Part shown: positions 1 through 50,781 of the stretch, piece by piece
Numbering within the stretch: the first letter of the stretch is position 1
Layout: every line of letters starts with the position of its first letter
Assembly: GCA_964016885.1 (NCBI GenBank)
Contig: OZ024746.1
Span: forward strand, 72,726,001 to 72,790,000
Direction of reading: 5' to 3'
Source: Eledone cirrhosa
Lineage: Eukaryota
DNA length: 64,000 nt
Notes under the pieces: generated by a model
What the model was told of the DNA's origin: nothing
Databases searched by the model: none
Seen by the model: the letters and a program-made list of their open reading frames with translations, nothing else
Made by a program: the position numbers and the translations under genes

Positions 1-569
1 TATATATTATATATTGGTCATGTTGCTGATACAACAAAAAGCACTGTCCACTTTTAAGTAATTGTGACTTGACATAAATCACCTGGTCATGCTGTATAAA
101 GTGGTCTACTGGTGATTAGATGAATGAAAAAGTACCCAGCTGTAAAAACCAAACCAAAAACAGTTCTGTATGAGCAAGACAGTTCGGAAATATCCCCAAG
201 AAACAAATTCTCTTAGGAAAAAATATTAAGTAAAACAAGTAAATGAAAATAGGACCACCTTTATATTTGTAGAACTGTCACAGCAGGACTTAGGTGACGA
301 GGGGAGGGCTGTTCTCTAAAAATCGGGACTGTTGAAGCAGGAAGAATGGAAATCATCATAATCATAGTACATAACTTACTATTGCCATTGAAGGATAGTT
401 TGTATATACATACATAAAAAAAAAAAAATCACATGTTGAAGTTATTTGATGCATATACACACACACAGCAAAAACCAACCAAACTGAGTGTTTTCTGTTA
501 TTAATTCTGGCAATATTATTACAACAATATGACCCTCCCCAAGTATATATATATATATTATATATACAT

Positions 570-917
570 GTAAAGTTATATTTAAAATTGTTGGGTTACA
601 ACTAGTAAATATTTATAACTGATATAAAAGCACTCGACAAATATTTGGAGTATATTTACAATATTAAATAAATGGAAAACTATATTTATAAAACCATATC
701 TATTTCATTATATATATTTCGGGGATATCATATTAACAATATGCTATGCCTTCATCAGACAAAATACAATATAAACAGTTTTATAAACAGTCTATAAAAC
801 TGTTTATATTGTATTTTGTCTGATGAAGGCATAGCATATTGTTAATATGATATCCCCGAAATATATATAATGAAATAGATATGGTTTTATAAATATAGTT
901 TTCCATTTATTTAATAT

Positions 918-921
<4 letters not shown>
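570..921 (-). mobile_element. Penelope-like fold-back element, family A copy 1 (palindrome plus tail, hammerhead in each arm)
   Basis: Near-perfect inverted repeat 657-785/793-921 centred on 789, unique tail 570-656, flanked by (TA)n on both sides. Related copies at 14501-14910 and 34276-34382. Confidence 0.8.
810..880 (+). ncRNA. Minimal type I hammerhead ribozyme (mirror copy on the minus strand at about 698-768)
   Basis: CTGATGA 820-826, imperfect stem II hairpin, GAAA 858-861, palindromic stem III TATATA, AUA cleavage triplet ending at 869. Downstream ATGAAATA pairs with upstream TATTTTGT (stem I, with G-U pairs). Confidence 0.75.
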
Positions 922-984
<63 letters not shown>

Positions 985-1310
985 ATGTGTTGAGGTGTCA
1001 ATACATATCTAATATGTATGATCATGTTTCTCAAAAACTCAAGGGATCTTGGTTCAGAGTGTTAATTATTGTTCAAATTTAAAAGATACATGTAGAGAAA
1101 GAGTCATATATTGTTTGAGAAACGTACCATTTGTACATGTACATGTATAGAGAGATCAAATAATATTCAGGAAAATGGTAAAAAGGTCGATGATTGTTTT
1201 ATCATCTTAAAGTATGTATATTTTCCTAAATATTATTTGATGTCTCTCTTTCTCTCTCGAGGTGTACAAAATGCTGTTTCTCAAACGATATATGACTTTC
1301 TCTCTATAAA
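985..1310 (-). mobile_element. Degenerate Penelope-like fold-back element
   Basis: Imperfect inverted repeat about 1093-1177/1219-1307, tail 985-1092 containing an ACTC...GAGT hairpin (1037-1060), flanked by (CA)n/(TA)n. The hammerhead core is decayed. Confidence 0.55.
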
Positions 1311-1332
1311 TTTATATTATATATATATATAT

Positions 1333-1516
1333 AGAAGTGGTTACACAACAGTTAGTTCACCATACCGAGAACAATTGTTTCACCTTAGCGGATCCTCAGC
1401 TCGTAATGGACCATTACGAGCTGAGGATCAGCTAAGGTGAAACAATTGTTTTCTACCTCATCCCATGGACTGAGTGCTCTACCACTACGGATATTACCTT
1501 CCAGTGTTCTACCACT
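1333..1516 (+). mobile_element. Short fold-back hammerhead element (family B)
   Basis: Palindrome 1370-1409/1411-1450. CTGAGGA (1421-1427), short stem II, then GAAACAATTG in both arms. The minus-strand copy has stem I CCATTACGAG/CTCGGTATGG. The tail contains TGAGTGCT, and the element is flanked by (TA)n. Confidence 0.7.
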
Positions 1517-2422
1517 ATATATATATTTATACACACACGTTTAGTAAAGAGTAAAAATTTACAGGAAAAAAAACAAAAACCCTATTACATTTATATATCC
1601 GTAATATCAAATGTTTATTAGGGATTTATAACACCAAAATATCCATAAAATTTGGCTACGAATTTGATATTCAGATACTAGCTTAAGAACATTATCAAGA
1701 TGACTCCTAATTAGTAATTATCCTTGCACTAATTAATTCTCATATACGAAAGGAATATAGCATATTACCAGTAACCATTTGGTTCCAGTAGTTAACTACT
1801 GCATTTTTATTTTTATTAAATAGACTGGAATGAAAATAGGATGTGATGATGGTCATACTTTTCTGTGAAATAAAATCGACGTGCAAAATCCACATCTACA
1901 AGAAATATATACCAAATCACTCCATACTGCGTTTAAATTGGGGACTGAATTTTAGCCCTTCCGTTACTATTTAAGTCTATTCAGAGCTGACGTACAATGG
2001 GGAACCTTTACGTGGTTGTAACTCGACTTGCTAGAAGTAGCAGCCAAATTCTCTTAAACCACACACCCTAAAAGTGACATTAAACCTTTTGCTAAAGCAA
2101 GGTACTGCCTATGATTTTCAAATCATTCTGAAAACTTTCAGGAATTTGGAGAAATCTAGTGATACAATCTATGTTCCAAACAGAAACTTAGCTAATAAAG
2201 GTTCTTACATAAAATTACGATAAATATAAGCACTTTAAAATAGTTTTCTATCATAGAATCAAGGATGGTTTGATAACAAAATGATTTTTTCAAAGTATCA
2301 CTGATAATAGATCTTGAGTTAAGGAAACGAAAATATCCCGTCCGATTTATGAGCCATTTTGCATGCACACACTCGTTCAAAATTAGGGAATCCTATATAT
2401 ATATATATATACACACACATAT

Positions 2423-2712
2423 ATAATCATGTTCCACAAAATAGAAAATATATTCTAAGTTTAATCGTGGATTCGGAGTTGAATAGGAGCTAGTACGTGA
2501 GTGTGTGTGTATATAATCATGTTCCACAAAATAGAATATATTATATACATATATATAAGTTTAATCATGCATTCAGAGTTGAATAGGAGCTAGTACGTGT
2601 GTGTGCGTGTGTATATATATATATATAATCATGTTCCACAAAATATATATATGTATATAAATATATTCTAAGTTTAATCATGGATTCGGAGTAGAATAGG
2701 AGCTAGTACGTG
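2423..2712. repeat. Three tandem copies of a 75-90 bp unit separated by (TG)n(TA)n
   Basis: ATAATCATGTTCCACAAAA...GAATAGGAGCTAGTACGTG at about 2423, 2513 and 2625. Confidence 0.85.
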
Positions 2713-2713
2713 A

Positions 2714-2744
<31 letters not shown>

Positions 2745-13144: not shown

Positions 13145-13800
13145 TAATAGGATAAAGTAGTATAGTTAATGTGAAGCACTGTGAGATATATAATAAAAAC
13201 CCAATAAGTTTCAAAAAGCTGGTACAATGCGGTAGAAATATATAAAGGGCAAAGGAAGACAAATAAAACAAAGTAATGTTTTACCCAATAAAATTCAACA
13301 TGATATTTCAGGGTTAAACCCTCTTTTCAGGGTTAAACCAGAAATGGTTCAAAACAAACACAAACAATTGGTGTTCTTCCTTAACTGCTCAATGTGTCTG
13401 AAATACCCGTATGAAGTCGTTATAGTAGCCAATCTGCATTGTGCATTTCCAATCTGTTATTTATATGGGTTTTTTTTTCTGGTTGATGATAATGGCCTTT
13501 TTGATCCTTAAATTGCCAACAGTCCTTTCCATTGCCTCTGTGGTGACTTCAATGTCATGGCTGCAGCATGTCAAGATGTTTTTTAACAGAAGTTCTCGTC
13601 ATCATGTACTCCGTAATCCATATGTGCAGCATCAGGATGGTACTTCTGATGTATGAGGAGCTACATTTTTACATGTGACCTTGTAGACCATATACACTTT
13701 CATGCACACTTTGTTTTTTGTTTTATTTGTCATATTTTGCCCTTTATATAGTTATACTGCATTGTACTGGCTTTTTGAAATTTATCGGCCTTTTATCATA
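13145..13800 (-). mobile_element. 5'-truncated Penelope-like retroelement with GIY-YIG remnant, hammerhead and inverted partial pLTR
   Basis: Minus strand 13700-13455 reads (frameshifted) VYKVTCK..SSYIRSTI..LHI..KHL..NLRIKKAIII..KP.INNR, the PLE GIY-YIG signature. Hammerhead-like CTGAAAA-GAGGGTTTAACCCT-GAAA at about 13337-13294. Inverted repeat of about 85 bp at 13189-13273/13710-13800. (TA)n flanks. Confidence 0.8.
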
Positions 13801-13881
13801 TATATAATAGGAATTTAGATCGATATAATGGTAGATGTATAGAAGCCTCTGCAATGTATGTATGTGTGTATATATATATAT

Positions 13882-14232: not shown

Positions 14233-14486
14233 TAGAAATTATATAGAAGACTCCAAACCTCGGAAGAAACAATTGTAAGCGAATAAATGATTTGAACAGA
14301 ACTTTGATTCATGTAATTTCTATATAACTGGTCTGTAGAACAACTGATGTTATTACATTGAGCTATTTATCTTACTGGTAATAAGGTAGTAATAAATTAC
14401 TGTCTTTCACTGTTTAGGGTTTAAAATATATATAACTATAAAAGGTTTTAGTATATACATAACCATAAATAGTATCCTTAATACTA
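14233..14486 (+). mobile_element. Penelope-like pLTR fragment, family F copy 1
   Basis: About 250 bp nearly identical to 49877-50121, with a truncated hammerhead (GAAGACTCCAAACC...GAAACAATTGTAAGC) and (TA)n flanks. Confidence 0.7.
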
Positions 14487-14500
14487 TATATATATATATA

Positions 14501-14910
14501 TATACGATATTAACAAATGGAAACTATATTTATAAAACCATATCTATTTTATTATACATATTTCAAGGATACCATGTTAAATTATGGTATGCTTTCCTCA
14601 GACAAAATACAATATATACCAGTTTTATAAATAAATATTGACATACCCTTTCAAAAGTAACAGTAGCATTTTGAAAGGGTATGTCAATATATATTTATAA
14701 AACTGGTATATATTGTATTTTGTCTGAGGAAAGCATACCATAATTTAACATGGTATCCTTGAAATATGTATAATAAAATAGATATGGTTTTATAAATATA
14801 GTTTCCATTTGTTAATATCGTATATTTACTCCAAATACTTGTCGAGTGATTTATATCAGTTATAAAAATATTTGCTTGTTGTATCCCAACAATTTAAATA
14901 GAACTTTTGC
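14501..14910 (+). mobile_element. Penelope-like fold-back element, family A copy 2
   Basis: Near-perfect inverted repeat 14501-14656/14669-14824, tail to 14910. Hammerhead CTGAGGA 14724-14730, stem II ATACCAT/ATGGTAT, GAAA 14761-14764, mirrored on the minus strand. (TA)n flanks. Confidence 0.85.
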
Positions 14911-14932
14911 ATATATATATATATATATATAT

Positions 14933-15716: not shown

Positions 15717-16056
15717 ATGGAGGCACATGGCTTAGTGGTTAGAGCATTGGCCTTGCAATCGAAAGGTTGTGAGTTCAATTCTCAGACCGGGTGATGTGTT
15801 GTTTCCTTGAGCAAGACACTTTATTTCACATTGCTCCAGTTTACTCAGCTGTAGAAATGAGATGATAGGGACTGGGGTCCCTATCATTCCACTGCAAAGT
15901 GGAGGTGCCACGACAAAAAAGCACCCAGCACTCACTATAAATGAGGTTGGTGTTAGGAAGGGCATCCAGCTGTAGAAATCAAGCCAGAATCAGTTCCCGT
16001 CCCACCCTTGCAAGCAGGGAAGAAGCGGACGTAAAATGAAATGATGATGATGAAAT
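15717..16056 (+). mobile_element. tRNA-derived CORE-type SINE with RTE-like tail
   Basis: A box TGGCTTAGTGG, B box GAGTTCAATTC, CORE-like CCTTGAGCAAGACACTT...CTGTAGAAATG, 3' end shared with the neighbouring RTE LINE, (GAT)n tail. Confidence 0.9.
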
Positions 16057-16059
16057 GAT

Positions 16060-16403
16060 CATTCATCATCATCATTTCATTTTACGTCCGCTTTTTCCCT
16101 GCTTGCAAGGGTGGGACGGGAACTGATTCTGGCTTGATTTCTACAGCTGGATGCCCTTCCTAACACCAACCTCATTTACAGTGAGTGCTGGGTGCTTTTT
16201 TGCCGTGGCACCACCACGACCACTTTGCAGTGGAATGATATGGACCCAGTCCCTATCATCTCATTTCTACAGCTGAGTAAACTGGAGCAATGTGAAATAA
16301 AGTGTCTTGCTCAAGGAAACAACACATCACCCGGTCTGAGAATTGAACTCACAACCTTTCGATTGCAAGGCCAATGCTCTAACCACTAAGCTATGTGCCT
16401 CCA
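16060..16403 (-). mobile_element. Same SINE family, inverted tail-to-tail copy
   Basis: Reverse complement of 15717-16056 with only a few differences. Confidence 0.9.
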
Positions 16404-16409
16404 TAAGGA

Positions 16410-17208: not shown

Positions 17209-18468
17209 TGGAAGCATGGACTAGAATCAAAAGGCCTTAAAATTAACTTGTCTAAGACTAAAGTTCTAGTATGTAGGAAGGTAAATAGGGCACTGGTCCC
17301 CTCTGGGAAATGGCCATGCTCAGTGTGTAGGAAAGGAGTAGACAGAAACTCCATTTTATATCCCAAATGCAAAGTATGAGTGCATAAAAGATGTAGAGGG
17401 ATAACAGGTAAGCTAACTAAGAACATAGATTTTATATGTGGCCGGTGCTCAGGTGCAATAAGTAGTAGCAAGTGCCCACAGGATACTAGCTCCTTCCATT
17501 GCCCAGATGGTTCTATAGAAATAGTGGACACCCTCCGTTACCTGGGTGACAAAATCAGCAGTGGCGAAGGGTGCTCTGAATTTACAGTAGCCAGAATCAG
17601 AACGAGATGGAAAAAGTTCAGAGAGCTTATACCACTATTGGCTGCTAAAGGTTTCTCTCTAAAAATGTATGATGCCTGCATATGAACAGCAATGTTACAT
17701 GGCAGTGAGACATGGGCATTGTGTGCAGAGGATCTGCGCAGACTGAAGAGGAACGAAGCTTGCATGCTCCGTTGGATGTGTAATAGTAATATACGTGAAC
17801 GGCAAAGCATAAATGAACTAAGTGAGAAATTAGGAATAAGAGGGATCAGATGCTGTTTACTCGAGAGAAGACTATGTTGATATGGTCACGTGATGCGCAT
17901 GAAAGACAACAGCTATATAAAAAAGTGCAGGGTGATCAAAATAGATGCAACCTACGGAGTAGGCAGACCCAGAGAAACCTGGGACACCTTGATAAATTCC
18001 GACCTTACACACTTACTCCAAGACAATGTCACTGGACCGAGATCTTTGGCGCTATGCAGTAATACAGAAGACCCACTTTGCCTAAGTACAAAGCGAAACC
18101 TACAGTCCATAGGCACCTCTTAACAAAAATACACCCCCGTCCCACTACCCCCACTTCATCCACACCACCTCTTTCGATGTAAAGTTATGTTGGTACCACA
18201 ACATCCAGTCCGAAATAAATGAGGTCGTGTAGGTGTCACGACAAAAAAACACACAGGCCACGCTGTAATGTGGCCGTGTAGGTAACACGGTAAAAACCTC
18301 CCAGTCTACACTGTAAACGTGGTTGGTGTTAGGAAGGGCATCCAGCCATAGAAAACCTGCCAGACAGTCCTATACGAGCAAGACAACTAATCTTGCCTCA
18401 CGTGGGACAATTCCCGTCTAAACCCATGCTAGCGTGGAAGATAGACGTTAAACGATGATGATGATGAT
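17209..18468 (+). mobile_element. RTE-clade LINE, degenerate 3' part with 3'UTR
   Basis: WKHGLESKGLKINLSKTK, WPCSVCRKGV, MLHGSETW, GRPRETW, several stops, (GAT)n tail. Confidence 0.9.
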
Positions 18469-18979
18469 ATAAAAATAACAAAATAAGATGCTGAGGTTAC
18501 ATAAATCATTTAATCATTATAATTATTTCCACGATTCTCCATGCAATCGAGAAGTCTTTCATGCATTTGTTGTTGTTATGAGAACGATATTCTCAGATGA
18601 TATCCGATTTATTTGATATGCCGCCGGCAGGAAAAAACGTCCTATTGCTTGTGTGCCCAGCAGACATATGCGGTGTACTCGGCAGACATATGTCTGCCGG
18701 TCACACGAGCAATAGGACATGTGTTTTTTACTGCCGGCGGAATATCAAATAAATCGGATATCATCTGAGAATACCGTTCTCATAACAACAACAAATGCAT
18801 GTAGAACTTCTCGATTACATGGAGAACTGTGGAAATAATTAAAAGGATTAAACGATTTATGTAACCTCAGCATCTTATTTTGTTATTTTTATAAAAATCT
18901 CCATCGTAACTAAAAACTGCGATTGTTGAGAGCTTTCTCCTGCTTGCTCCCGTTTTTACCAAAACAATCTCTTCTGAAC
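18469..18979 (+). mobile_element. Large fold-back element with tail (family H)
   Basis: Inverted repeat about 18469-18670/18688-18893 (about 200-bp arms, some mismatches), 85-bp tail with CTC...GAGAGCT, ending in (TA)n. No canonical hammerhead core was seen. Confidence 0.65.
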
Positions 18980-19989
18980 ATATATATATATATAAGGGAT
19001 CTTGAGCCAATCATCTGTGAAACATACGTAACAGGTTGATAATCAATAAAACATGTTAACAAAACTGTTTTTTCTTAATACATACACTCTACCTGTGCAT
19101 TGAATGCTCCTATTGGTATCACCGCCAAAAAATCATAGAATCATCATCATCATCACTGTTTAATGTCCATTTTTCCATGCTTGCATGGGTCAAACAAGTC
19201 ATCCACATTGAGAGACAAGTTTGGCCAGGATTGGCCACACCATACTTTGCTCTGACGAGCCTAAATTTGGCTGTGGTTTTTACAGCTGGATACCATTCGT
19301 AATACCAATCATCATCATCCTCATTTAAAATCTGTTTTCCATACTAGTAAGGATTGGATGGGTCTTCACAGGCCAAATCAGTACTCAAGCAGGGCGATTG
19401 ACCTCTCATTTGGGTCAGGAACCTGCATCTTGTCTACATACAATTCCACACTCTACTGAAGGCATTTTATCATGATACCAACACTAAGGAGGTTGTTATT
19501 TCTTTGACACAGCTAAAGGGTCCTCCTGTCCCTTTGTTTGGCAGGTTTTCTATGACAAGATACCTTTGATACAACTGAAGAGTCCTTCCGACTCTTTGTT
19601 TGGCAAGGTTTCTATGGTTAGATGCCCTTCCCATCACCAACCACCTTACAGCATGTTCAGGGTGCATTTATCATGAAGATCACTAACAATAGAGAAGTTG
19701 ATGTGGTGTTGGTACAACTGAAGTATCTTCTCAACTCTTATTGGCATGGTTTCAACAGCCGGGTCTAACCACCTTATAGGGTGTACTGGGTAAATTTTTC
19801 ATGGCACCAGCACTAGAGAGATTGTAGGTCATTTTGTGATGTGCTGAAAAGAAAGATAAGTATGATGTTATGTGTATATGACAAGTGTGGTAGGATCTGG
19901 CAAGATGATGAATAGGAGGGAAGGGTAGTCTTCTAGTAGTATGATGTGGGGTACACACTAATGTGTCAGAATTTTAAAGAGGGGTATAG

Positions 19990-22124: not shown

Positions 22125-22476
22125 ATCATCATTTCATCATCATTTCATTTCATTTTACGTCCGCTTTTTCCCTGCTTGCAAGGGTGAGACGGGAACTGAT
22201 TCTGGCTTGATTTCTACAGCTGGATGCCCTTCCTAATACCAACCTCATTTACAGTGAGTGGTGGGTGCTTTTTTGCCGTGGCACCTCCACGACCACTTTG
22301 CAGTGGTATGATAGGGACCCAGTCCTTATCATCTCATTTCTACAGCTGAGTAAACTGGAGCAATGTGAAATAAAGTGTCTTGCTCAAGGAAACAACACAT
22401 CACCCGATCTGAGAATTGAACTCACAACCTTTCGATTGCAAGGCCAATGCTCTAACCACTAAGCCATGTGCCTCCA
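22125..22476 (-). mobile_element. CORE-type tRNA SINE, full-length
   Basis: Near-identical to 16060-16403. Confidence 0.9.
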
Positions 22477-22574
22477 TAAGTTTAATAAGACCCCCTATGT
22501 GTAGACGTTGGCCGCGATCGACCCCCGACCAGTATCTCAGCAGACTCAACGCACTGTACCACTTGATACACCAA

Positions 22575-22837: not shown

Positions 22838-23345
22838 TGTCAGTGTTGAACAAAAAGGTGACGTGGTTGCCTAGACACTGTAAGGCGTAATTCAGGCTGT
22901 TTGTTTGTTTACAAACAAACCAAGCATTATAATAAATGTTCGGTAAACCGATACGTGCATATATATATGTGTGCATGTATGTGTATATATACATACTACT
23001 GTACGTCTGTATACATATATGTATATACATATACATACATACATACTTACATTTAAGTAACTGCCGTACTAAGTGTGAGAAACGAAATTTCGTTTCATTC
23101 TATTCCATTTATCGTTTTCGGTGTGCCCGGCCGATTAAACTCACTCGATATGCAAATTAGGCTGCTCAGCCGTTAATATGCATAAGGAAAGTATATACCT
23201 TCAGACGTTCAACCATCTGGCAGGAAGGTATACGATGCTGACGATAGCTAATAAGCTTGAAACTAGTACATTGTTTCTGTGTCAGTGTTGAACAAAAAGG
23301 TGACGTGGTTGCCTAGACACTGTACGGTGTAATTCGGGCTGTTTT
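22838..23345 (+). mobile_element. Retrozyme-like non-autonomous element: 441-bp monomer plus about 65-bp terminal direct repeat
   Basis: TGTCAGTGTTGAACAAAAAGGTGACGTGGTTGCCTAGACACTGTA...GGCTGTTT at 22838 and 23279, with a hammerhead immediately before the second repeat. No coding capacity. Confidence 0.75.
23232..23274 (+). ncRNA. Minimal type I hammerhead ribozyme
   Basis: Stem I ACGATG/CATTGT, CTGACGA 23238-23244, stem II AGCT-AATA-AGCT, GAAA 23259-23262, palindromic stem III CTAG, GUA cleavage triplet ending at 23268. Confidence 0.85.
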
Positions 23346-29757: not shown

Positions 29758-30257
29758 TTGATAAAAATTTTGGTGTTATTATAGAAAGATACTTCCATTG
29801 ATTTCAGTGGGAAATAACATTTTTTCTTTCTTTTTCTTTGTGCTATCAATTAAACGTACCTCTTGCAAAGGACTTTTTCCCCCTGAAAAAGGAAAGGGGA
29901 GAGGGGCACCTTCAGACTCCCTCACTGAATTTTCTTTACCATTTCTTTTTTCCTTGTTTTATTTTCCTATGCTACCAACTAATCTTACCCCTGACCATGT
30001 TGCAAAGGACTTATTTTCCTCCCTTAGAAAACGGAGGGGGAAGAAATGAGGGGACTCTCAGACTTTTCACTCCCTCTTCTCCAGGGTTAAGATTAGGGTT
30101 AAGGCTGGGGTTAGACTTAGGGTTGAGGTTAAGGTTGGTGATGGGGTTAGGATCAAGGTTTGATAGCATATAAAAAAAGAAAGAGGAAAATAAATTATTT
30201 TCCACTGAAATCAGTGGGGGTGTCTTTCTATAAATTTACCAAAATTTCTTTTATCAA
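29758..30257. mobile_element. MITE-like element with long TIRs and internal degenerate TTAGGG repeats
   Basis: TATAGAAAGATACTTCCATTGATTTCAGTGGGAAATAA (from about 29780) is inverted at about 30194-30231, and the IR extends imperfectly about 20 bp further. GGGTTA-like repeats at 30084-30160. Confidence 0.65.
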
Positions 30258-30563
30258 GAGAAATGATTTTTTAAGTGAATTTTATTAACTGCTGACTGCC
30301 GATACACACAGAGACCAGTTTGCTTCAAATTATCTTTTAAAATCATTATTCGTTGATATACAGATTGGTTTAATATACAAACACACACATATACTTATAT
30401 ATATTTATACATACAGACTCTCGGGTCTTGAATAATCGTCCCCGCTACTGCTTATTCATTTTTCAGATTTCTAACCCCTCTGCTCTTATTCCAACCCCCC
30501 ACTGCTTATTAAATTTTGCTAATCTATCTACGGCAACAGTTTATTTTAATTGGTAGCACTTCT

Positions 30564-30636
30564 TCCTTGTGCAGGGGCCATGCTAAACTTCTCTGTATCG
30601 TTCCAATTTTAGAATATGTACTGCTGTAGCAGGATA
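30564..30636 (-). pseudogene. U6 snRNA pseudogene, 3'-truncated (about nt 1-73)
   Basis: Minus strand GCAGTACATATTCTAAAATTGGAACGATACAGAGAAGTTTAGCATGGCCCCTGCACAAGGA matches U6, including the ACAGAGA box and AGC triad. Similarity stops after CAAGGA. Confidence 0.92.
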
Positions 30637-33372: not shown

Positions 33373-34275
33373 TATATACATATATATAAAAATATATATA
33401 TAGAGAGGTTTAATATAGAAAAGGCTTCTACATGACTAGAACCGTATATACAAGGTAGGTGTCATGACAAAAAGCACCCAGTACACAGTAAATGTGGTTG
33501 GCGTTAGGAAGCACACCCAGTCGTAGAAACCAAGCCAAAATTAGTTCTTAATGAGCAAGACGTGGTCATATTACCTGGCTTATCTCACGAGACAACTCGT
33601 CTAACGTGGAAAAATGGACTTTAAACGGTGATAATGATATATATATATATATCCTGATTTAATAACCAAGCTTATACATACACAAACACACATAGGTACC
33701 ATCTGAATAAAATCAAGTACCCTTTATACATAATGTATTGAGTCTAAAAGTTTGTATTGAGCGGCGGCTCGGGGTTTATTCCAGTTTTAAGTGACTGAGA
33801 GATGACACACACCCTGAACAGGGTTAAACTCCCAACTATTGCAAATACTCATTTTCAGCTGAGTATGCTGGAGCAACGTGAAATGTTTTTTTTAAACCCA
33901 CGGCATTATGATCGTGTTTCTTACTACTAGGCCACGCACATGTGTGGATTTGCGGTTTCGTTCAGCTTTTTAACGGAAGACAATTGAACTACACGTACAT
34001 ATATATATATATATATATATATTATTTAACGTGAGAAATTCAAATACTACTCTTTTTTTTTTATCTCGTAAAGGAAGTCGGTGATTGAGTGACTTGAGAG
34101 AAGTAGACGTAAAGGCGGGAGACGGCATTGTTATCAAGCAAGATAATTGTGGAAGGAGGAAGAATAAGACAAAGAGAGAGAGAACAAGGACAGGAAATAG
34201 GACAAAAGCGAAATAGCGGGATGGTCTGACGAAGTTCAGATATATAAATCTATTCAAGTACACACACATATATAT

Positions 34276-34382
34276 ATACGATATTAACAAATGGAAACTA
34301 TATTTATTTCAGTTGAGTGCTTTATATCAGTTATTAAAATATTTGCTTGTTGTATCCCAACAATTTAAATAGAACTTTTGCA
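34276..34382 (+). mobile_element. Family A fold-back element, collapsed copy
   Basis: First 30 bp of the left arm (TATACGATATTAACAAATGGAAACTATATTTAT) joined directly to the tail (GAGTGCTTTATATCAG...GAACTTTTGCA). Confidence 0.8.
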
Positions 34383-35944
34383 TATATATATATATATAAA
34401 TATATATAGAGAGAGAGCTATGCTTTCTGTGTTTGTGTTTTTGAACTATATAGGAAGGGGAAAAGTAGTTTGAAGGAAAAAAAACTTAAGAGAGGAGTAG
34501 TATGAGTGCAAGAGAGAACAAAGATAAAGAGGGAGAGAAGAAAAAAAAAATGGTTGTAGATATTTATTTAGAACATGTGATAGTGGTGAGTGGCAGGAAG
34601 AGAAGAAAACAGGAGAAAGAAGCAGCACGTGATTAGGTAGAGTTGTAAGAGAAAGGAAAAGACTAAACAAAGAGAAAGACAGCCAAGGAATATAGAGAGG
34701 CGATATCTCGGGTAGCGTTAAATAAATGTGTGCTTGTGTATCATTCTTACAAGGTGTATGTGTGCGCTTATGTATAATTCTCATGCGTTTGTATGTGTGA
34801 AATTGTTTCTTGTGCATATTTGAAAAAATGAAATAAAATCGACCAGAAAATCAAACAAAATTTTTTTAAAGATTTTAATTCAAGAAAAGAAAGAATGGTT
34901 AAAGAAACCAAACCCAAACCCTTATATGACAATGTAATTATAGAAACATTTTGAAAGGAAGTGCCAAAACTCGTCACACTGTCAAATACTCCAACACGAC
35001 ATTATTTTGACAGTCAATACATCGTTACTATAAATTAAGCGGGGCAATCCTATAGGATCGAGTCGTAAAACCCATTTCTTCCTATAATTTTGTGCACATA
35101 GGATTGGAAAACACCAACCCTTGTAAATAAACCCTACAGTGAATTTACGGTGACAGTATGTCTAGTTTCATATTTACGTTAACACGAAGTAAAAATGTAT
35201 TTCGTTAATTTGTAGATCGGAAGCTAAATTAACCCACTATTGTCATTTCACTTAATTTCAACGTACACATAACGAAAGAATGCCTACTCCCCAACCCTTC
35301 CACAAGCTTGCAATCCTCGGATGCCATTATTTACATTTATATTATAACGGCAGTTCTTTTAGATAGCCTTCGATGATGGAATCGAGCAGGAAATCATAGC
35401 ACCACTAACCGTAAAAAAGCGAAGCCGTTGTCCTAAAATCCAGCCCCCCCTTTCGCCCTAATTTACGATATAGTGCCAACCTAATCAGTCTTGCCACAAA
35501 CATGGGGCTGGTCACACGCAACGGAAGATGATTAAATACCAGGCATTATTGGCCGTCTCCTTTTTTTGTGTTGGTCACCATTGAGACCTCTGGTGTGCTC
35601 GGTCCGGACTGCCGTTTTCCTCTGCTAAATCGACATTGACATCGTGGCTGAAGAAAGAACTCACAACTGGTGAAATAGCGGATGCAGCGAGTTTCGCTGT
35701 CTGTTCTTAACAATGCTTTCTTTCAGTCCTGTCCGCGGGGTGCATCTGAGATATACCAATGGGTGTAGAGTTTTCTCTCTCTTTTTTAAAAATTCGTTTT
35801 GTCATTAAGAACTGACTGTAAAAAACTAAAAATTACGACACTGAAAACAGCCTTAACCCTATTGGTCGTGGTGAAGAGAAGAATAATCAATGCAATGCTG
35901 GTAGTAGTAATAGTAGCAGCAGCAACATTATTACTGCATTCAAG

Positions 35945-36135
35945 GGCGGGGAATTGGCAGTATCGGTAGAGAGTCGGACGCCATGCTTTCTAGCATAGTT
36001 ACGTCCCTTTACAGTCTGAGTTCAAATACCGCCGAGGTTAACTTTGCCTTTCATCCTTCCGGGGTCGATAAAATAAAGTACCAGTAATGTACTGAGTAAT
36101 TGCTGGCCTTGTGCCTAAAGTAGAAACAATTATTA
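35945..36135 (+). mobile_element. tRNA-derived SINE, second family
   Basis: TGGCAGTATCGG A box, GAGTTCAAATACC B box, GGGGTCGATAAAATAAAGTACCAG core. Other copies at 36370-36545 (-), 37810-37980 (-, partial) and 51865-52052 (+). Confidence 0.85.
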
Positions 36136-36369
36136 CTGCATTCATTGATTGTGGTTAAAAAAAGGGAAGTAGGAGCTAAAGAGGGGTGGTGAAAGCAAAG
36201 GATAAGAAATAGGAGTATGAGGAAAGATAGAGAAGAAAGGGGTAGGTGAGCTAGGAGAACGAAGGAGTAATATGACGTCACGCCTGTAATTATAACTTCT
36301 CTTTCGTATTCGTTTAGTATTTCCATCCACAAAATTGCAGTGAATTATAATTACAATGTATATATAATT

Positions 36370-36545
36370 GTTTATACTTTTTGGCACAAGGCCAGCAATT
36401 ACTGGTACTTTATTTTATTTTATCGACCCCGTAAGGATGAAAGGCAAAGTTAACCTCGACGGGACTCGAACTCAGAATGGCAAGGGCCATAACTCTGTGC
36501 GTCAAAGCATAGCGTCCGACCCTCTACCAATACTGCCATTCCACC
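36370..36545 (-). mobile_element. tRNA-derived SINE, second family, inverted relative to 35945-36135
   Basis: Reverse-complement core CTGGTACTTTATTTTA...TCGACCCC...GGATGAAAGGCAAAGTTAACCTC. Confidence 0.85.
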
Positions 36546-45953: not shown

Positions 45954-47624
45954 CTGAAGGAAGACAGAGTTTGGTCATTCAGTGTCTACAATTGAAAAAT
46001 ATTTTTTTACTATTGCTATAACTGATTACGATGTTTGGACAGCATATACACTACAAAACATTTTAAAACTCTCTCTCTCTCTAACTGATTTCAGTCTTTG
46101 GACTGTCAACACACTGGGGCACCACATTCAAAAGTTTTTACTTAATTATATCTCCATTGCCAAAGTACTTAGTACATGGTAAACAAGTACATAAGGATAT
46201 GTAGTTACTGCATCAAATGACATATCGTATTTTTTAGTTTTGATAAATGGTCCAGTAGTTTGATTAATGGAACAGCCTTAATGAAAATTAACATGTAAGT
46301 AACTGAGCATTCCACAGACACGTGTACTCTTAATGAGATTTGGCATGACAGTTTTTGACAAGGCTGTCCTTTTGATTTATAAGCACTGTCCATCCAATGG
46401 TCTTCCAAACAGTTTCCATCATTTAATATAAGTTTGCATGGGTTAGATGGGTTGTCATGTACGAGACAAGTCAGGTCAGGTGACAATGTCTTGATCACAT
46501 GGATCTGTATTTTGGCATGGTTTCTATAGCTGGATGCCTTTCCTAACACCAACTATGTTACTGCGTGGACTGAGTGCCTTTTATTGTGGCACCAAAACAA
46601 CCACTTTACAGGATGGACTGAGCGTATTTTGTCGTGTCACCAGCACGACCACCTCACCTTACAGGATGGACTGACACTCTTTATTTTCTCACCGGCAAAA
46701 CCATTCATTCATAAGATGTGGGTCAATCTAAAGCCATGGTAAATGACACACACACAAGATTCATTGCAGTGGAATCAAACCCAGAACTTTTATAATTGCA
46801 AAGTAAACATCTCAATCATTTGACCTTGCTGCATTCATCCCATGTCATCATCATCATCACCATCGTTTAATGCAACTTTACAGCATGTATTGAGTGCATT
46901 TATTGTGTTTATAACCAACACTAGGGAGGCTGTATATGTGTGTGTGGGTATGCATGCATGCTCTTGTGTTTATATATACTCTGATATACAAACTGGTGTT
47001 GTTTATGTTGCATCCCAGTAGTTTGACAAACAGAGATTGATAATATAAGTTCTGAGGTTGACTAAACAGTTGAAGGTAGTGCCCCAGCATGACTGTTTCC
47101 CAATGACTAAGACCAATAAAAGAATATATACATACACAGACATGTTATTTTCATTCCATGAGGTCTTACCATAATTTCTAAAGCGTTCTTGAAATAACAT
47201 ATCCACATTCTATGGGGCCACATCTGATGCTGTCAATTGCCTCACTAGTCATTATCATCATGTTTGTTGTTTAACGTTCGTTTTCCCTGTTAGCGAAGGT
47301 TGGACTAGTCACCTTAGTTATTTAAAAAAACACACCTTTAAGACTCTTATATAGATGTTGCTAAGTACATCAATGTTTTGGAGGAACGTCAAAGATTAGA
47401 GTTCTCTCCCTTGCAGCGGGACATGGCTTCAAGTGTAATAAAAAGTTAGTTTGACAGCTTTAAAACAGTTTTTAAAAAATATTTTCCAACCACATGTTCG
47501 AAAATCCATTGTTTAAAACCGTATAAGATACAGAGCCCACTTAACACATGGGTACAAAATCAAATATATCTGTATATATATAAACACAAACAAACACATA
47601 TAAACATGTATGTAATGTATGTAT

Positions 47625-48010
47625 AAATATGAAGATATGGTTCTACTTTCCATACTAATTTATTGAATCAAAAGTGTTTTGTACATTTTAACAGTGTCAG
47701 ATGACTGTTACATAAGAATAACTTGAATTGGACCTGTCTTCATCAGGCGTGTCTGACTGAAATTATTCTTACATAACAATTGCCTGGCACCTCTAAAATG
47801 TACATAATAGTTGTATTCAATAAACTGAAATATGGAAAAGTAGAACCATGTCTTCATGTCTATTAACATACCAATACTCCATCGCGTAATAGTCTACATG
47901 ATCCCAGATAAATACAACTGATGTGGAGTGTTTAAGGCTGATTACACTATAGTTTGTTGATTGCTATAATAAAATGTAAAAGTAACAATCACTTAAAATT
48001 AAGACAACGA
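47625..48010 (+). mobile_element. Degenerate Penelope-like fold-back element (family J)
   Basis: Imperfect inverted repeat about 47626-47722/47760-47862, CTGATGA on the minus strand near the centre, tail with ACTCCA...TGGAGT, TA-rich flanks. Confidence 0.6.
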
Positions 48011-49504: not shown

Positions 49505-50121
49505 TTATAGAAATTATATAGAAATACAACCCCCATAATAATCTTGATTGCCCGCTTAAAGTGCTTGTATTACATATAACACCCTGCCGCACTATAATCT
49601 TATATAAACTAGACACATGTGCATGCCCCATGTGTAACTATTGCATACACTAACTACTTCAAACTATCCTCTTGCTTTATCTTCGTAAACTGCCAATGTT
49701 GTATTTTAACTTTAATTTTGTTCTTTGATATGACTTTAACCTTTGAATGTAAATTGCCATGCTAAATATTATAATGGATGTCAACCCACTGTGCATCAAT
49801 ATATACATATGTTTCTGTATGTCTCTTGTGTTGAAAAGGAGGTCATGTATGTAAATAACCATTGAAAAATTGCTCCGAAGACTCCAAACCTCGGTTTGGA
49901 AGAAACAATTGTAAGCGAATAAATGGTTTAAACAGAACTTTGATTCATGTAATTTCTATATAACTGCTCTGTAGAACAACTGATGTTATTACATTGAGCT
50001 ATTTATCTTACCGGTAATAAGGTAGTAATATATTACTGTCTTTCACTATTTAGGTTTAAAATATATATAACTATAAAAGGTTTTAGTATATAAATAACCA
50101 TAAATAGTATCCTTAATACTA
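49505..50121 (+). mobile_element. Penelope-like pLTR, family F copy 2, with hammerhead at about 49868-49920
   Basis: Stem I ATTGCT/AGC(G)AAT, core CCGAAGA (U4C variant), stem II TCCAAACC/GGTTTGGA, GAAAC-AATT-GTA, tail GCTC...GAGC hairpin, (TA)n flanks. Confidence 0.75.
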
Positions 50122-50781
50122 TATATATATTTATGTGTATCATCATCACCATTATCATTTACTTTTCCTTGCTTGCAAGGGTGGAACAGTTCTTCTTCAG
50201 CACAGCATCTCCCCATTCGTCACAGTCCTTCATCATCTCCTCTGTGAGCTTCAGCGATCTGAAGTCAGATCTCACCACCTCTGCCCATGTTTTTCATGGT
50301 CTTCCTGTACTCCATCTTCCTTTCTCCGGCACTTATTCACCATACCAACACAGTCTTCTCTCCTGCACACTACAGTTTATTCTTCTTATACACAGTTTCA
50401 CTCTCAAGTTGTCCATGCTTGATCATTCACGCACATTGACATTGCACATCCATCGAAGTATGATTGCTTCATTGCTTCATGGGTTGACCAATGCTTTGTA
50501 AGTGAAATTTAGTAGACAGTAACTGTGTAGAAGCTCATTAGCAATATGTGTATATATCCCTGTCTGTGTTTACATTTATTATTTGTTTATGTTTTGTAAC
50601 TTTTATTGTTTGACTAAAAAGAAATTGATAAAATAAGTACCATACTTAAAAAAATAAGTACTTGCGTCAGTATGATTAACTAAATGCCTTCATGACAGTG
50701 TCCTATTCTAATGACTGAAACGTAGTAAAATAATATATGTATAAACACACATACTTAATAGTCAGAAATACACATAGTTAC

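What the first reader, a model, noticed from the sequence alone, without database searches (positions are those of the whole stretch)
544..1530. Stacks of fold-back hammerhead-ribozyme elements in (TA)n tracts: a multi-family Penelope-related non-coding system
Seen: three unrelated short elements (570-921, 985-1310, 1333-1516) sit one after another, separated only by (TA)n/(CA)n. Each is a palindrome plus a unique tail. Two carry a recognisable minimal type I hammerhead core (CTGANGA...GAAA-palindrome-NUH) in both arms. The palindrome-plus-tail or hammerhead-plus-tail layout recurs at 13145, 13882, 14233, 14501, 18469, 47625, 49505 and 55520. Known: Penelope-like elements carry minimal hammerheads in their pLTRs, often have inverted partial pLTRs, and some clades prefer microsatellites. 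Inference: this genome has many parallel non-autonomous hairpin-ribozyme families. Transcription of either strand would give a self-cleaving RNA that could instead fold into a long duplex that masks the ribozyme.
Basis: partly seen in the sequence, partly recalled or inferred. Interest (0 to 1): 0.88.

Follow-up and report, generated by a model that had tools for sequence, protein, structure and literature searches.

The report
Twin-primed Penelope retrotransposon stumps
These mirror-image pieces are short leftovers of common jumping genes (Penelope-like, Hydra type) that land in TA repeats, a known pattern, and their fixed, paired end points suggest that each insertion is likely copied from two set start points onto the two cut strands of the target DNA.

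Summary
The three palindrome-plus-tail elements are real, but they are not replicating non-coding hairpin families. Elements 1 and 3 (and those at 14233/49505, 14501, 18469) are 3' ends of autonomous Hydra-clade Penelope-like retrotransposons; longer genomic copies run into an RT + GIY-YIG ORF. Element 2 has the same layout but no ORF link was found. The hammerheads are the ordinary pLTR ribozymes; element 3's right-arm copy is broken by a deletion. The palindrome centre differs from copy to copy (0 of 64 and 0 of 63 position-ordered loci share the window's centres), so each mirror arm is made at insertion. Inverted copy, one-sided tail, HHR and (TA)n targeting are published. Beyond print (by my searches): head-to-head pairs almost always join one arm ending at the tail end (T) to one ending at a fixed inner site (P): 45 of 46 and 35 of 38. 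Six pairs have non-overlapping arms, which fold-back cannot make. Best model: two target strands prime at two RNA sites. This scan noted the same layout and model before on other DNA.

The parts
552..566 (.). left copy of the 13-15-nt target-site duplication of e1, inside (TA)n
   Evidence: identical to 920-934 including a TT interruption
567..656 (-). e1 tail: from inner end point P to outer end point T; holds a CTC...GAG bulged hairpin 6 nt after P
657..788 (-). e1 tail-bearing (T) arm: 3' end of a 3.95-kb Hydra-type PLE monomer, with hammerhead 766-701
   Evidence: 98% to L032 monomer; HHR scan
790..921 (+). e1 inverted (P) arm with hammerhead 812-877, predicted cleavage after 869
920..984 (.). 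right TSD copy (920-934), then (TA)n and (CA)n host tract
985..1312 (-). e2: old family (70-80% to relatives), tail about 985-1075, T arm and inverted P arm; no hammerhead in this copy; no ORF linked
1333..1409 (-). e3 inverted (P) arm with complete hammerhead 1407-1362, predicted cleavage after 1370
1411..1516 (+). e3 T arm and tail of a second Hydra-type PLE; 37 nt deleted, removing P and the 3' strand of helix I
14233..14480 (+). stump of the 49505 family with a 9-nt P arm; hammerhead partly lost
14497..14915 (+). P/T stump of an older subfamily of e1 (87%), hammerheads in both arms
18468..18985 (+). P/T stump of a fourth Hydra-type family; hammerhead core changed in both arms of this copy
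49505..50122 (+). stump of a third Hydra-type family, hammerhead 49867-49921 with a CCGA core, 9-nt P arm
13145..13810 (-). old tail-plus-inverted-arm element; family not linked to an ORF
   Evidence: one relative, L134
13873..14215 (+). old palindrome-plus-tail element, dispersed family; not linked to an ORF
47617..47960 (+). old palindrome-plus-tail element with the CTC...GAG hairpin after P; not linked to an ORF

Best explanation
The elements are 5'-truncated, head-to-head insertions of Hydra-type Penelope-like retrotransposons in (TA)n (shown for e1 and e3, likely for e2), and each pair of arms is likely made by twin priming from two fixed start points. Inferred steps: the element protein, probably as a dimer, cuts both strands of a TA tract about 13-15 nt apart (e1); one cut end primes reverse transcription at the outer site T and the other at the inner site P, 65-90 nt upstream, probably on one RNA; both cDNAs run towards the RNA 5' end, stop, and are joined head to head, often at short self-complementary words. 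This gives a palindrome whose centre varies and a tail on one side only. A bulged hairpin just 3' of P (and of T in some families) likely helps set the start. Many arms stop at one place per family, which may be the pLTR transcription start. Each insertion leaves TA on both sides, so later insertions can stack. The hammerhead is a passenger from the pLTR and would be masked in read-through transcripts.
For: ORF links: e1, e3, 49505, 18469; Hydra motifs in the alignment match PMC8557442 section 11. End pairing in position-ordered samples: e1 46 T/P, 1 P/P, 0 T/T by script, 45 of 46 after removing a double count, plus 5 more T/P judged by end type; e3 35 T/P, 3 T/T, and 1 P/P that is a script artefact; binomial against 50%: 3e-13 and 3e-8. 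P arm reaches further than the T arm in 17 of 46 e1 pairs, and in 6 the T arm (41-72 nt) never reaches P. Arm lengths within 10 nt in 19 of 46 against 9.0 by permutation (0 of 20,000), e3 14 of 35 against 7.9 (p 0.006). Both arms carry the same subfamily tag in 27 of 27 typed pairs (2 untyped). TSD. In vitro, an anole PLE cuts and extends both strands and starts at two sites that bound the tail (PMC11167929).
Against: No biochemistry or RNA data. One RNA versus two is weakly resolved: within-insertion arm differences (mean 0.69 per 150 nt) are only modestly below between-insertion ones (1.60), e3 2.08 versus 2.66; the 1.56-kb arms of L418 are 99.8% alike but other copies reach 99.3-99.7%; subfamily matching is also expected if subfamilies were active at different times. 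3 T/T and 1 P/P pairs exist, and 14 of 64 e1 loci and most of the 27 unpaired e3 loci show one arm only. e3 shows no duplicated interruption in its flanks and no matching hairpin after T in 20 tandem junctions. The stop hotspot could be an RT stall at the pyrimidine tract rather than a start site. e2's parent was not found.
Confidence: 0.72

Rival explanations
1. Non-autonomous palindromic hairpin-ribozyme families that replicate as whole units.
For: A full-length e3 query returned many 221-bp copies with one centre; e2, 13145, 13882, 47625 and 55520 were not linked to an ORF.
Against: That set was chosen by the query. Tail-anchored and position-ordered samples show variable centres (0 of 63 and 0 of 64 with the window's centre). 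The e3 centre occurs with either A or T in the middle, as independent joins would give; exact form at 16 loci. Raw reads mostly continue into the parent sequence at 1411 (1,138 and 953 reads).
Confidence: 0.05
2. Self-priming or fold-back: the first cDNA (or an antisense template) folds back and copies itself, as proposed in PMC3846280.
For: Many centres lie at short palindromic words and arms are often of equal length; the paper argues this from palindromes at inverted junctions.
Against: A T-started cDNA cannot template a longer P arm (17 of 46) or a non-overlapping one (6 pairs), and a P-started cDNA cannot template the tail. Fold-back does not explain why the copy always ends at P.
Confidence: 0.08
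3. Two separate RNAs, perhaps held together as a hammerhead dimer through their palindromic helix III, each prime one target strand.
For: Helix III inserts are palindromic in all families scanned (filter; 5 of 7 window motifs); PLE hammerheads are reported to work as dimers (PMC4209133); arms of very different length occur; T/T and P/P pairs exist.
Against: Independent site choice caps T/P at 50%; an extra asymmetry is needed. Coupled arm lengths. Hammerhead mutants do not affect insertion in vitro.
Confidence: 0.13
4. Assembly artefact (chimeric fold-back reads).
For: Long palindromes are a known assembly hazard (general knowledge); no long read was available for this locus.
Against: A TSD brackets e1; arms of old copies have diverged (71-88%); strand-changing joints appear in raw short reads of three other runs; contigs of two runs match 985-1226 and 1198-1304 without differences.
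Confidence: 0.02

Closest known systems
Hydra clade of C-terminal EN+ PLEs, incl. Hydra-1_Obim (Octopus bimaculoides) and Penelope-13_HM (PMC8557442; passages, section 11, supplement part 2 and searches read)
   Same: RW[K/R], DKT, CxCX5C linker, CxxC and CxH motifs; 3' hammerhead with a mismatch at the base of helix II; (TA)n targets; Penelope-13_HM is listed with a 5'-truncated inverted copy and a hammerhead on both strands.
   Different: By eye the proteins and hammerheads here are different families from Hydra-1_Obim; the e1 monomer is 3.95 kb against 'generally <3 kb'; tails are 65-165 nt against 30-40; thousands of short stumps. The paper gives no end-pairing counts in the parts read.
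Adineta vaga Penelope elements (PMC3846280; passages and part 2 of 5 read)
   Same: Head-to-head inverted pLTR, one-sided tail, palindromes at the junction, TSD around the whole unit, Inr-like TCACT in the pLTR.
   Different: Explained there by self-priming; the non-overlapping arms here do not fit that.
PAc, Poseidon of Anolis carolinensis (PMC11167929; parts 1-2 of 4 read, supplement not read)
   Same: Both strands cut and extended, two internal RT start sites bounding the tail, AT-rich target, predicted dimer, hammerhead dispensable.
   Different: Other clade; reports no strand difference in start site and, in the parts read, does not test whether one insertion uses one of each site or derive the inverted copy.
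LINE-1 twin priming (recalled; only search listings seen)
   Same: Two target strands prime on the RNA and give a 5' inversion.
   Different: In L1 the second site is variable and the arms do not duplicate; here the second site is fixed and the arms usually overlap.
Non-LTR retrozymes (bioRxiv 10.64898/2026.07.22.740005; part 1 of 5 read)
   Same: Type I hammerheads derived from PLE pLTRs, no coding capacity in the short copies.
   Different: Retrozymes are tandem direct repeats with their own replication; these are inverted dead-end insertions.

Membership tests
EN+ Penelope-like element | single ORF with RT and C-terminal GIY-YIG endonuclease | tested here: met
   L418 has one open frame of 546 aa from RT to EN, L032 adds the N-terminus, L302 388 aa for e3. 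Pfam does not hit these ORFs; homolog P0013 hits RVT_1 and GIY-YIG below cut-off, so the call rests on motifs and alignment.
EN+ Penelope-like element | partial tandem (pLTR-ORF-pLTR) with optional inverted 5' copy and one-sided tail | tested here: met
   L032, L247, L279 for e1; 20 e3 tandem junctions; L443 for 18469.
EN+ Penelope-like element | type I hammerhead in the pLTR | tested here: met
   Motif scan; 95% of cells paired and 2 pairs changed on both sides among 7 distinct e1-type rows, a small and related set.
EN+ Penelope-like element | hammerhead self-cleavage | not testable with these tools
   needs in vitro assay
Hydra clade | RWK and DKT motifs in the RT N-terminus | tested here: met
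   e1 RWR and DKT; e3 copy L419 SWR and DKT.
Hydra clade | CxCX5C linker, CxxC and CxH around E and N, no CCHH motif | tested here: met
   e1, e3, 49505 (linker only), 18469; absence of CCHH judged by eye.
Hydra clade | insertion into (TA)n | tested here: met
   flanks.
Hydra clade | placement in the clade by RT phylogeny | not tested
   labelled reference sequences were seen only as text in the paper's supplement; no tree was built.
Hydra clade (element 2) | link to a Hydra-type ORF | tested here: inconclusive
   55 loci plus two extensions; shared sequence ends within about 800 nt of T, nearby ORFs belong to other elements.
Replicating non-autonomous palindrome or MITE-like family | fixed centre and length shared by copies | tested here: not met
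Non-LTR retrozyme | tandem direct repeats each with a hammerhead | tested here: not met
   no tandem units in the region; arms are inverted.

The most novel reading that the evidence does not exclude
Penelope-like elements insert by programmed twin priming: a protein dimer holds one RNA at two hairpin-marked start sites and hands one to each cut target strand, so that the inverted pLTR, the one-sided tail and the flood of short palindromic stumps (run-off to the pLTR transcription start) are all products of a single reaction.
Probability: 0.55. Interest if true: 0.72.

Novelty: new member of a known kind. Interest (0 to 1): 0.45.

Why it matters
As sequence, this is ordinary repeat debris of a described clade. 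Its value is as a fossil record: how PLEs, the sister group of telomerase, form inverted repeats and tails is named as open in PMC8557442. Thousands of young copies here give a rule (one T end with one P end), non-overlapping arm pairs that exclude fold-back, and a candidate start-site hairpin, all testable in the existing in vitro system. The stumps may also be a large source of genomic hairpins and double-stranded RNA, which was not tested.

Tried and rejected
Fixed-centre reading of e3: raised, dropped. e1 tail-only search returned no candidates, not even the window, so it says nothing. Rfam: no hammerhead hit. Pfam: no hit on the ORFs. No RNA holder listed, so expression, start site and cleavage were not examined. 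Parent ORFs for e2, 13882 and 47625 not found; 13145 and 55520 were not searched genome-wide. Stacking test inconclusive: another known end within 150 nt in 6 of 108 e1 flanks and 11 of 99 e3 flanks against 70 of 1,500 background windows, with an incomplete library and an inflated background. Hammerhead-cleaved RNA as main template: few arms stop near the cleavage site (histograms). The 'e3 after T' row captured the wrong sequence and is void. Literature searches for the model: 'twin priming' + Penelope (3 listings, none on PLE mechanism by title and abstract). Evgen'ev and Arkhipova 2005 and Arkhipova 2006 were not read, nor the supplement of PMC11167929; a similar model may stand there. No complex or structure prediction was run.

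Full report
Observation. The region holds three elements separated by (TA)n/(CA)n. e1 has arms 657-788 and 790-921 with one mismatch in 132, a 90-nt tail, and a 13-15-nt target duplication that repeats a TT interruption. e2 has 71% arms and e3 94% arms. A Hydra-style type I descriptor finds 7 hammerheads in the window against 0.1 in shuffles (60 shuffles, max 1): both arms of e1 and of 14501, the minus arm of e3, 49505, and one more at 23230. The plus arm of e3 lacks 37 nt, including the 3' strand of helix I. Among 7 distinct e1-type hammerheads 95% of cells pair and two helix II pairs change on both sides; the rows are few and related.

What they are. The genome is 3.0 Gb; named homologs are from Argonauta and Octopus, so the host is likely an octopod (inference). 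Copies of e1 lead into a 3.95-kb monomer arranged inverted pLTR - pLTR - ORF - pLTR (L032). e3, 14233/49505 and 18469 also lead into related ORFs, about 30-50% identical to the e1 ORF in the tblastn matches. They carry RW[K/R], DKT, CxCX5C, CxxC and CxH, the marks of the Hydra clade in PMC8557442. That paper's supplement lists an octopus Hydra family with a hammerhead and (TA)n preference, and a Hydra family with an inverted 5' copy and a hammerhead on both strands. No tree was built. e2 shares the layout and the hairpin after P (7 of 12 relatives) but its copies stop within about 800 nt and no ORF was linked. Exact 23-24-nt arm words occur 3,361 times for e1 and 5,784 times for e3.

Are the palindromes inherited? 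A full-length e3 query returned many copies with one centre, but a tail-anchored search (30 loci) and position-ordered samples did not: 0 of 63 e3 loci and 0 of 64 e1 loci share the window's centre, and the exact e3 centre occurs at 16 loci. The e1 sample covers all of the first 100 listed hits; the e3 sample covers 84 of the first 86 of 100 listed hits (one pair left out, seen as P/T). Arms range from about 40 nt to over 3 kb. Each mirror arm is therefore made at insertion.

End rule. Every arm ends either at the tail end (T) or at a fixed inner point (P). For e1 the script paired 47 head-to-head arms: 46 T/P, 1 P/P, 0 T/T; L279 was counted twice, giving 45 of 46; five further loci are T/P by end type; 14 loci show one arm. 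For e3: 35 T/P, 3 T/T and one P/P that is an artefact of a deletion in L299; 27 loci gave no automatic pair. Independent choice of end cannot exceed 50% T/P (p 3e-13 and 3e-8). In e1 the P arm reaches more than 10 nt further than the T arm in 17 of 46 rows, the T arm further in 10, and they match within 10 nt in 19 (permutation mean 9.0). In 6 pairs the T arm is 41-72 nt long and never reaches P, so the arms share no sequence; e3 has one such pair (L286). A cDNA started at T cannot be the template for such a P arm, and one started at P cannot give the tail, so both arms were copied from element RNA (or another full template). All 11 e1 pairs with an interruption of the TA tract within about 13 nt of P repeat it beyond T, one only partly (read, whose raw count is 12 of 23 with one spurious match); e3 does not show this.

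Mechanism. PMC11167929 shows in vitro that a PLE protein cuts and extends both strands, starts at two internal sites that bound the tail, is predicted to be a dimer, and needs no hammerhead cleavage. Joining that to the end rule gives the model: one strand primes at T, the other at P. That both use one RNA is inferred from the T/P rule and the coupled lengths; sequence evidence for it is weak. 43 of 114 e1 arms stop at -270 to -289, at a TCACT word behind a pyrimidine tract, and 62 of 107 e3 arms at -120 to -169; a transcription start is my reading (initiator consensus recalled; TCACT is called Inr-like in PMC3846280), an RT stall is the alternative. Following a lead from earlier notes of this scan, I found a CTC...GAG bulged hairpin 5-7 nt after P in 5 of 7 single copies tested (shuffle rate about 0.5-1%), and after T in e1 and 49505, in decayed form in 18469, but not in e3.

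The ribozyme. The full e1 palindrome folds as one duplex (-205 kcal/mol) while a single arm does not adopt the hammerhead as its lowest-energy fold. On both strands the complementary arm comes first, so read-through RNA would mask the motif. No RNA run was listed.

Artefact check. Strand-changing joints occur in raw short reads of three runs, in small numbers; contigs of two runs match 985-1226 and 1198-1304 exactly, though the first passes e2's centre by fewer than 31 letters. No long reads were available.

Known and new. Inverted 5' copy, tail, hammerhead, microsatellite bias and junction palindromes are in print. The T/P pairing and the case against fold-back were not found in print, with two older reviews and one supplement unread. 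This scan has reported the layout at least nine times and the two-start model twice; my reading was stated before those look-ups, and the counts above are my own.

Noticed in passing
window 15717-16404: 688-bp palindrome (96%) made of two copies of a tRNA-headed SINE-like repeat set tail to tail around an (ATG)n/(CAT)n centre; one arm matches 22125-22477. Opposite polarity to the PLE stumps.
   Followed up: no
   Followed up: partly
window 34271-34386: tiny P-arm/T-arm stump of the 14501 subfamily with almost no overlap between arms.
   Followed up: partly
window 30535-30632 (-): U6 snRNA copy, 70 bits, diverged at its 3' end; probably a pseudogene.
   Followed up: no
window 2446-2728: 2.7 tandem copies of a 100-nt unit within TA/CA runs.
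   Followed up: no
L333, L338, L341 (18469 family): T end runs into (CA)n while the P end abuts (TA)n in several copies, unlike e1 and e3.
   Followed up: no
fetched loci: more than ten further hammerhead families turn up as bystanders in the flanks, so the number of PLE families in this genome is large.
   Followed up: no
L420, L444 ORFs: long Asn/Thr-rich inserts between RT thumb and endonuclease, reminiscent of the N-rich inserts described in PMC3846280.
   Followed up: no
window 35950-36542 and 29758-30257: two further inverted pairs (80-82%); the first is two copies of a common repeat in opposite orientation.
   Followed up: no
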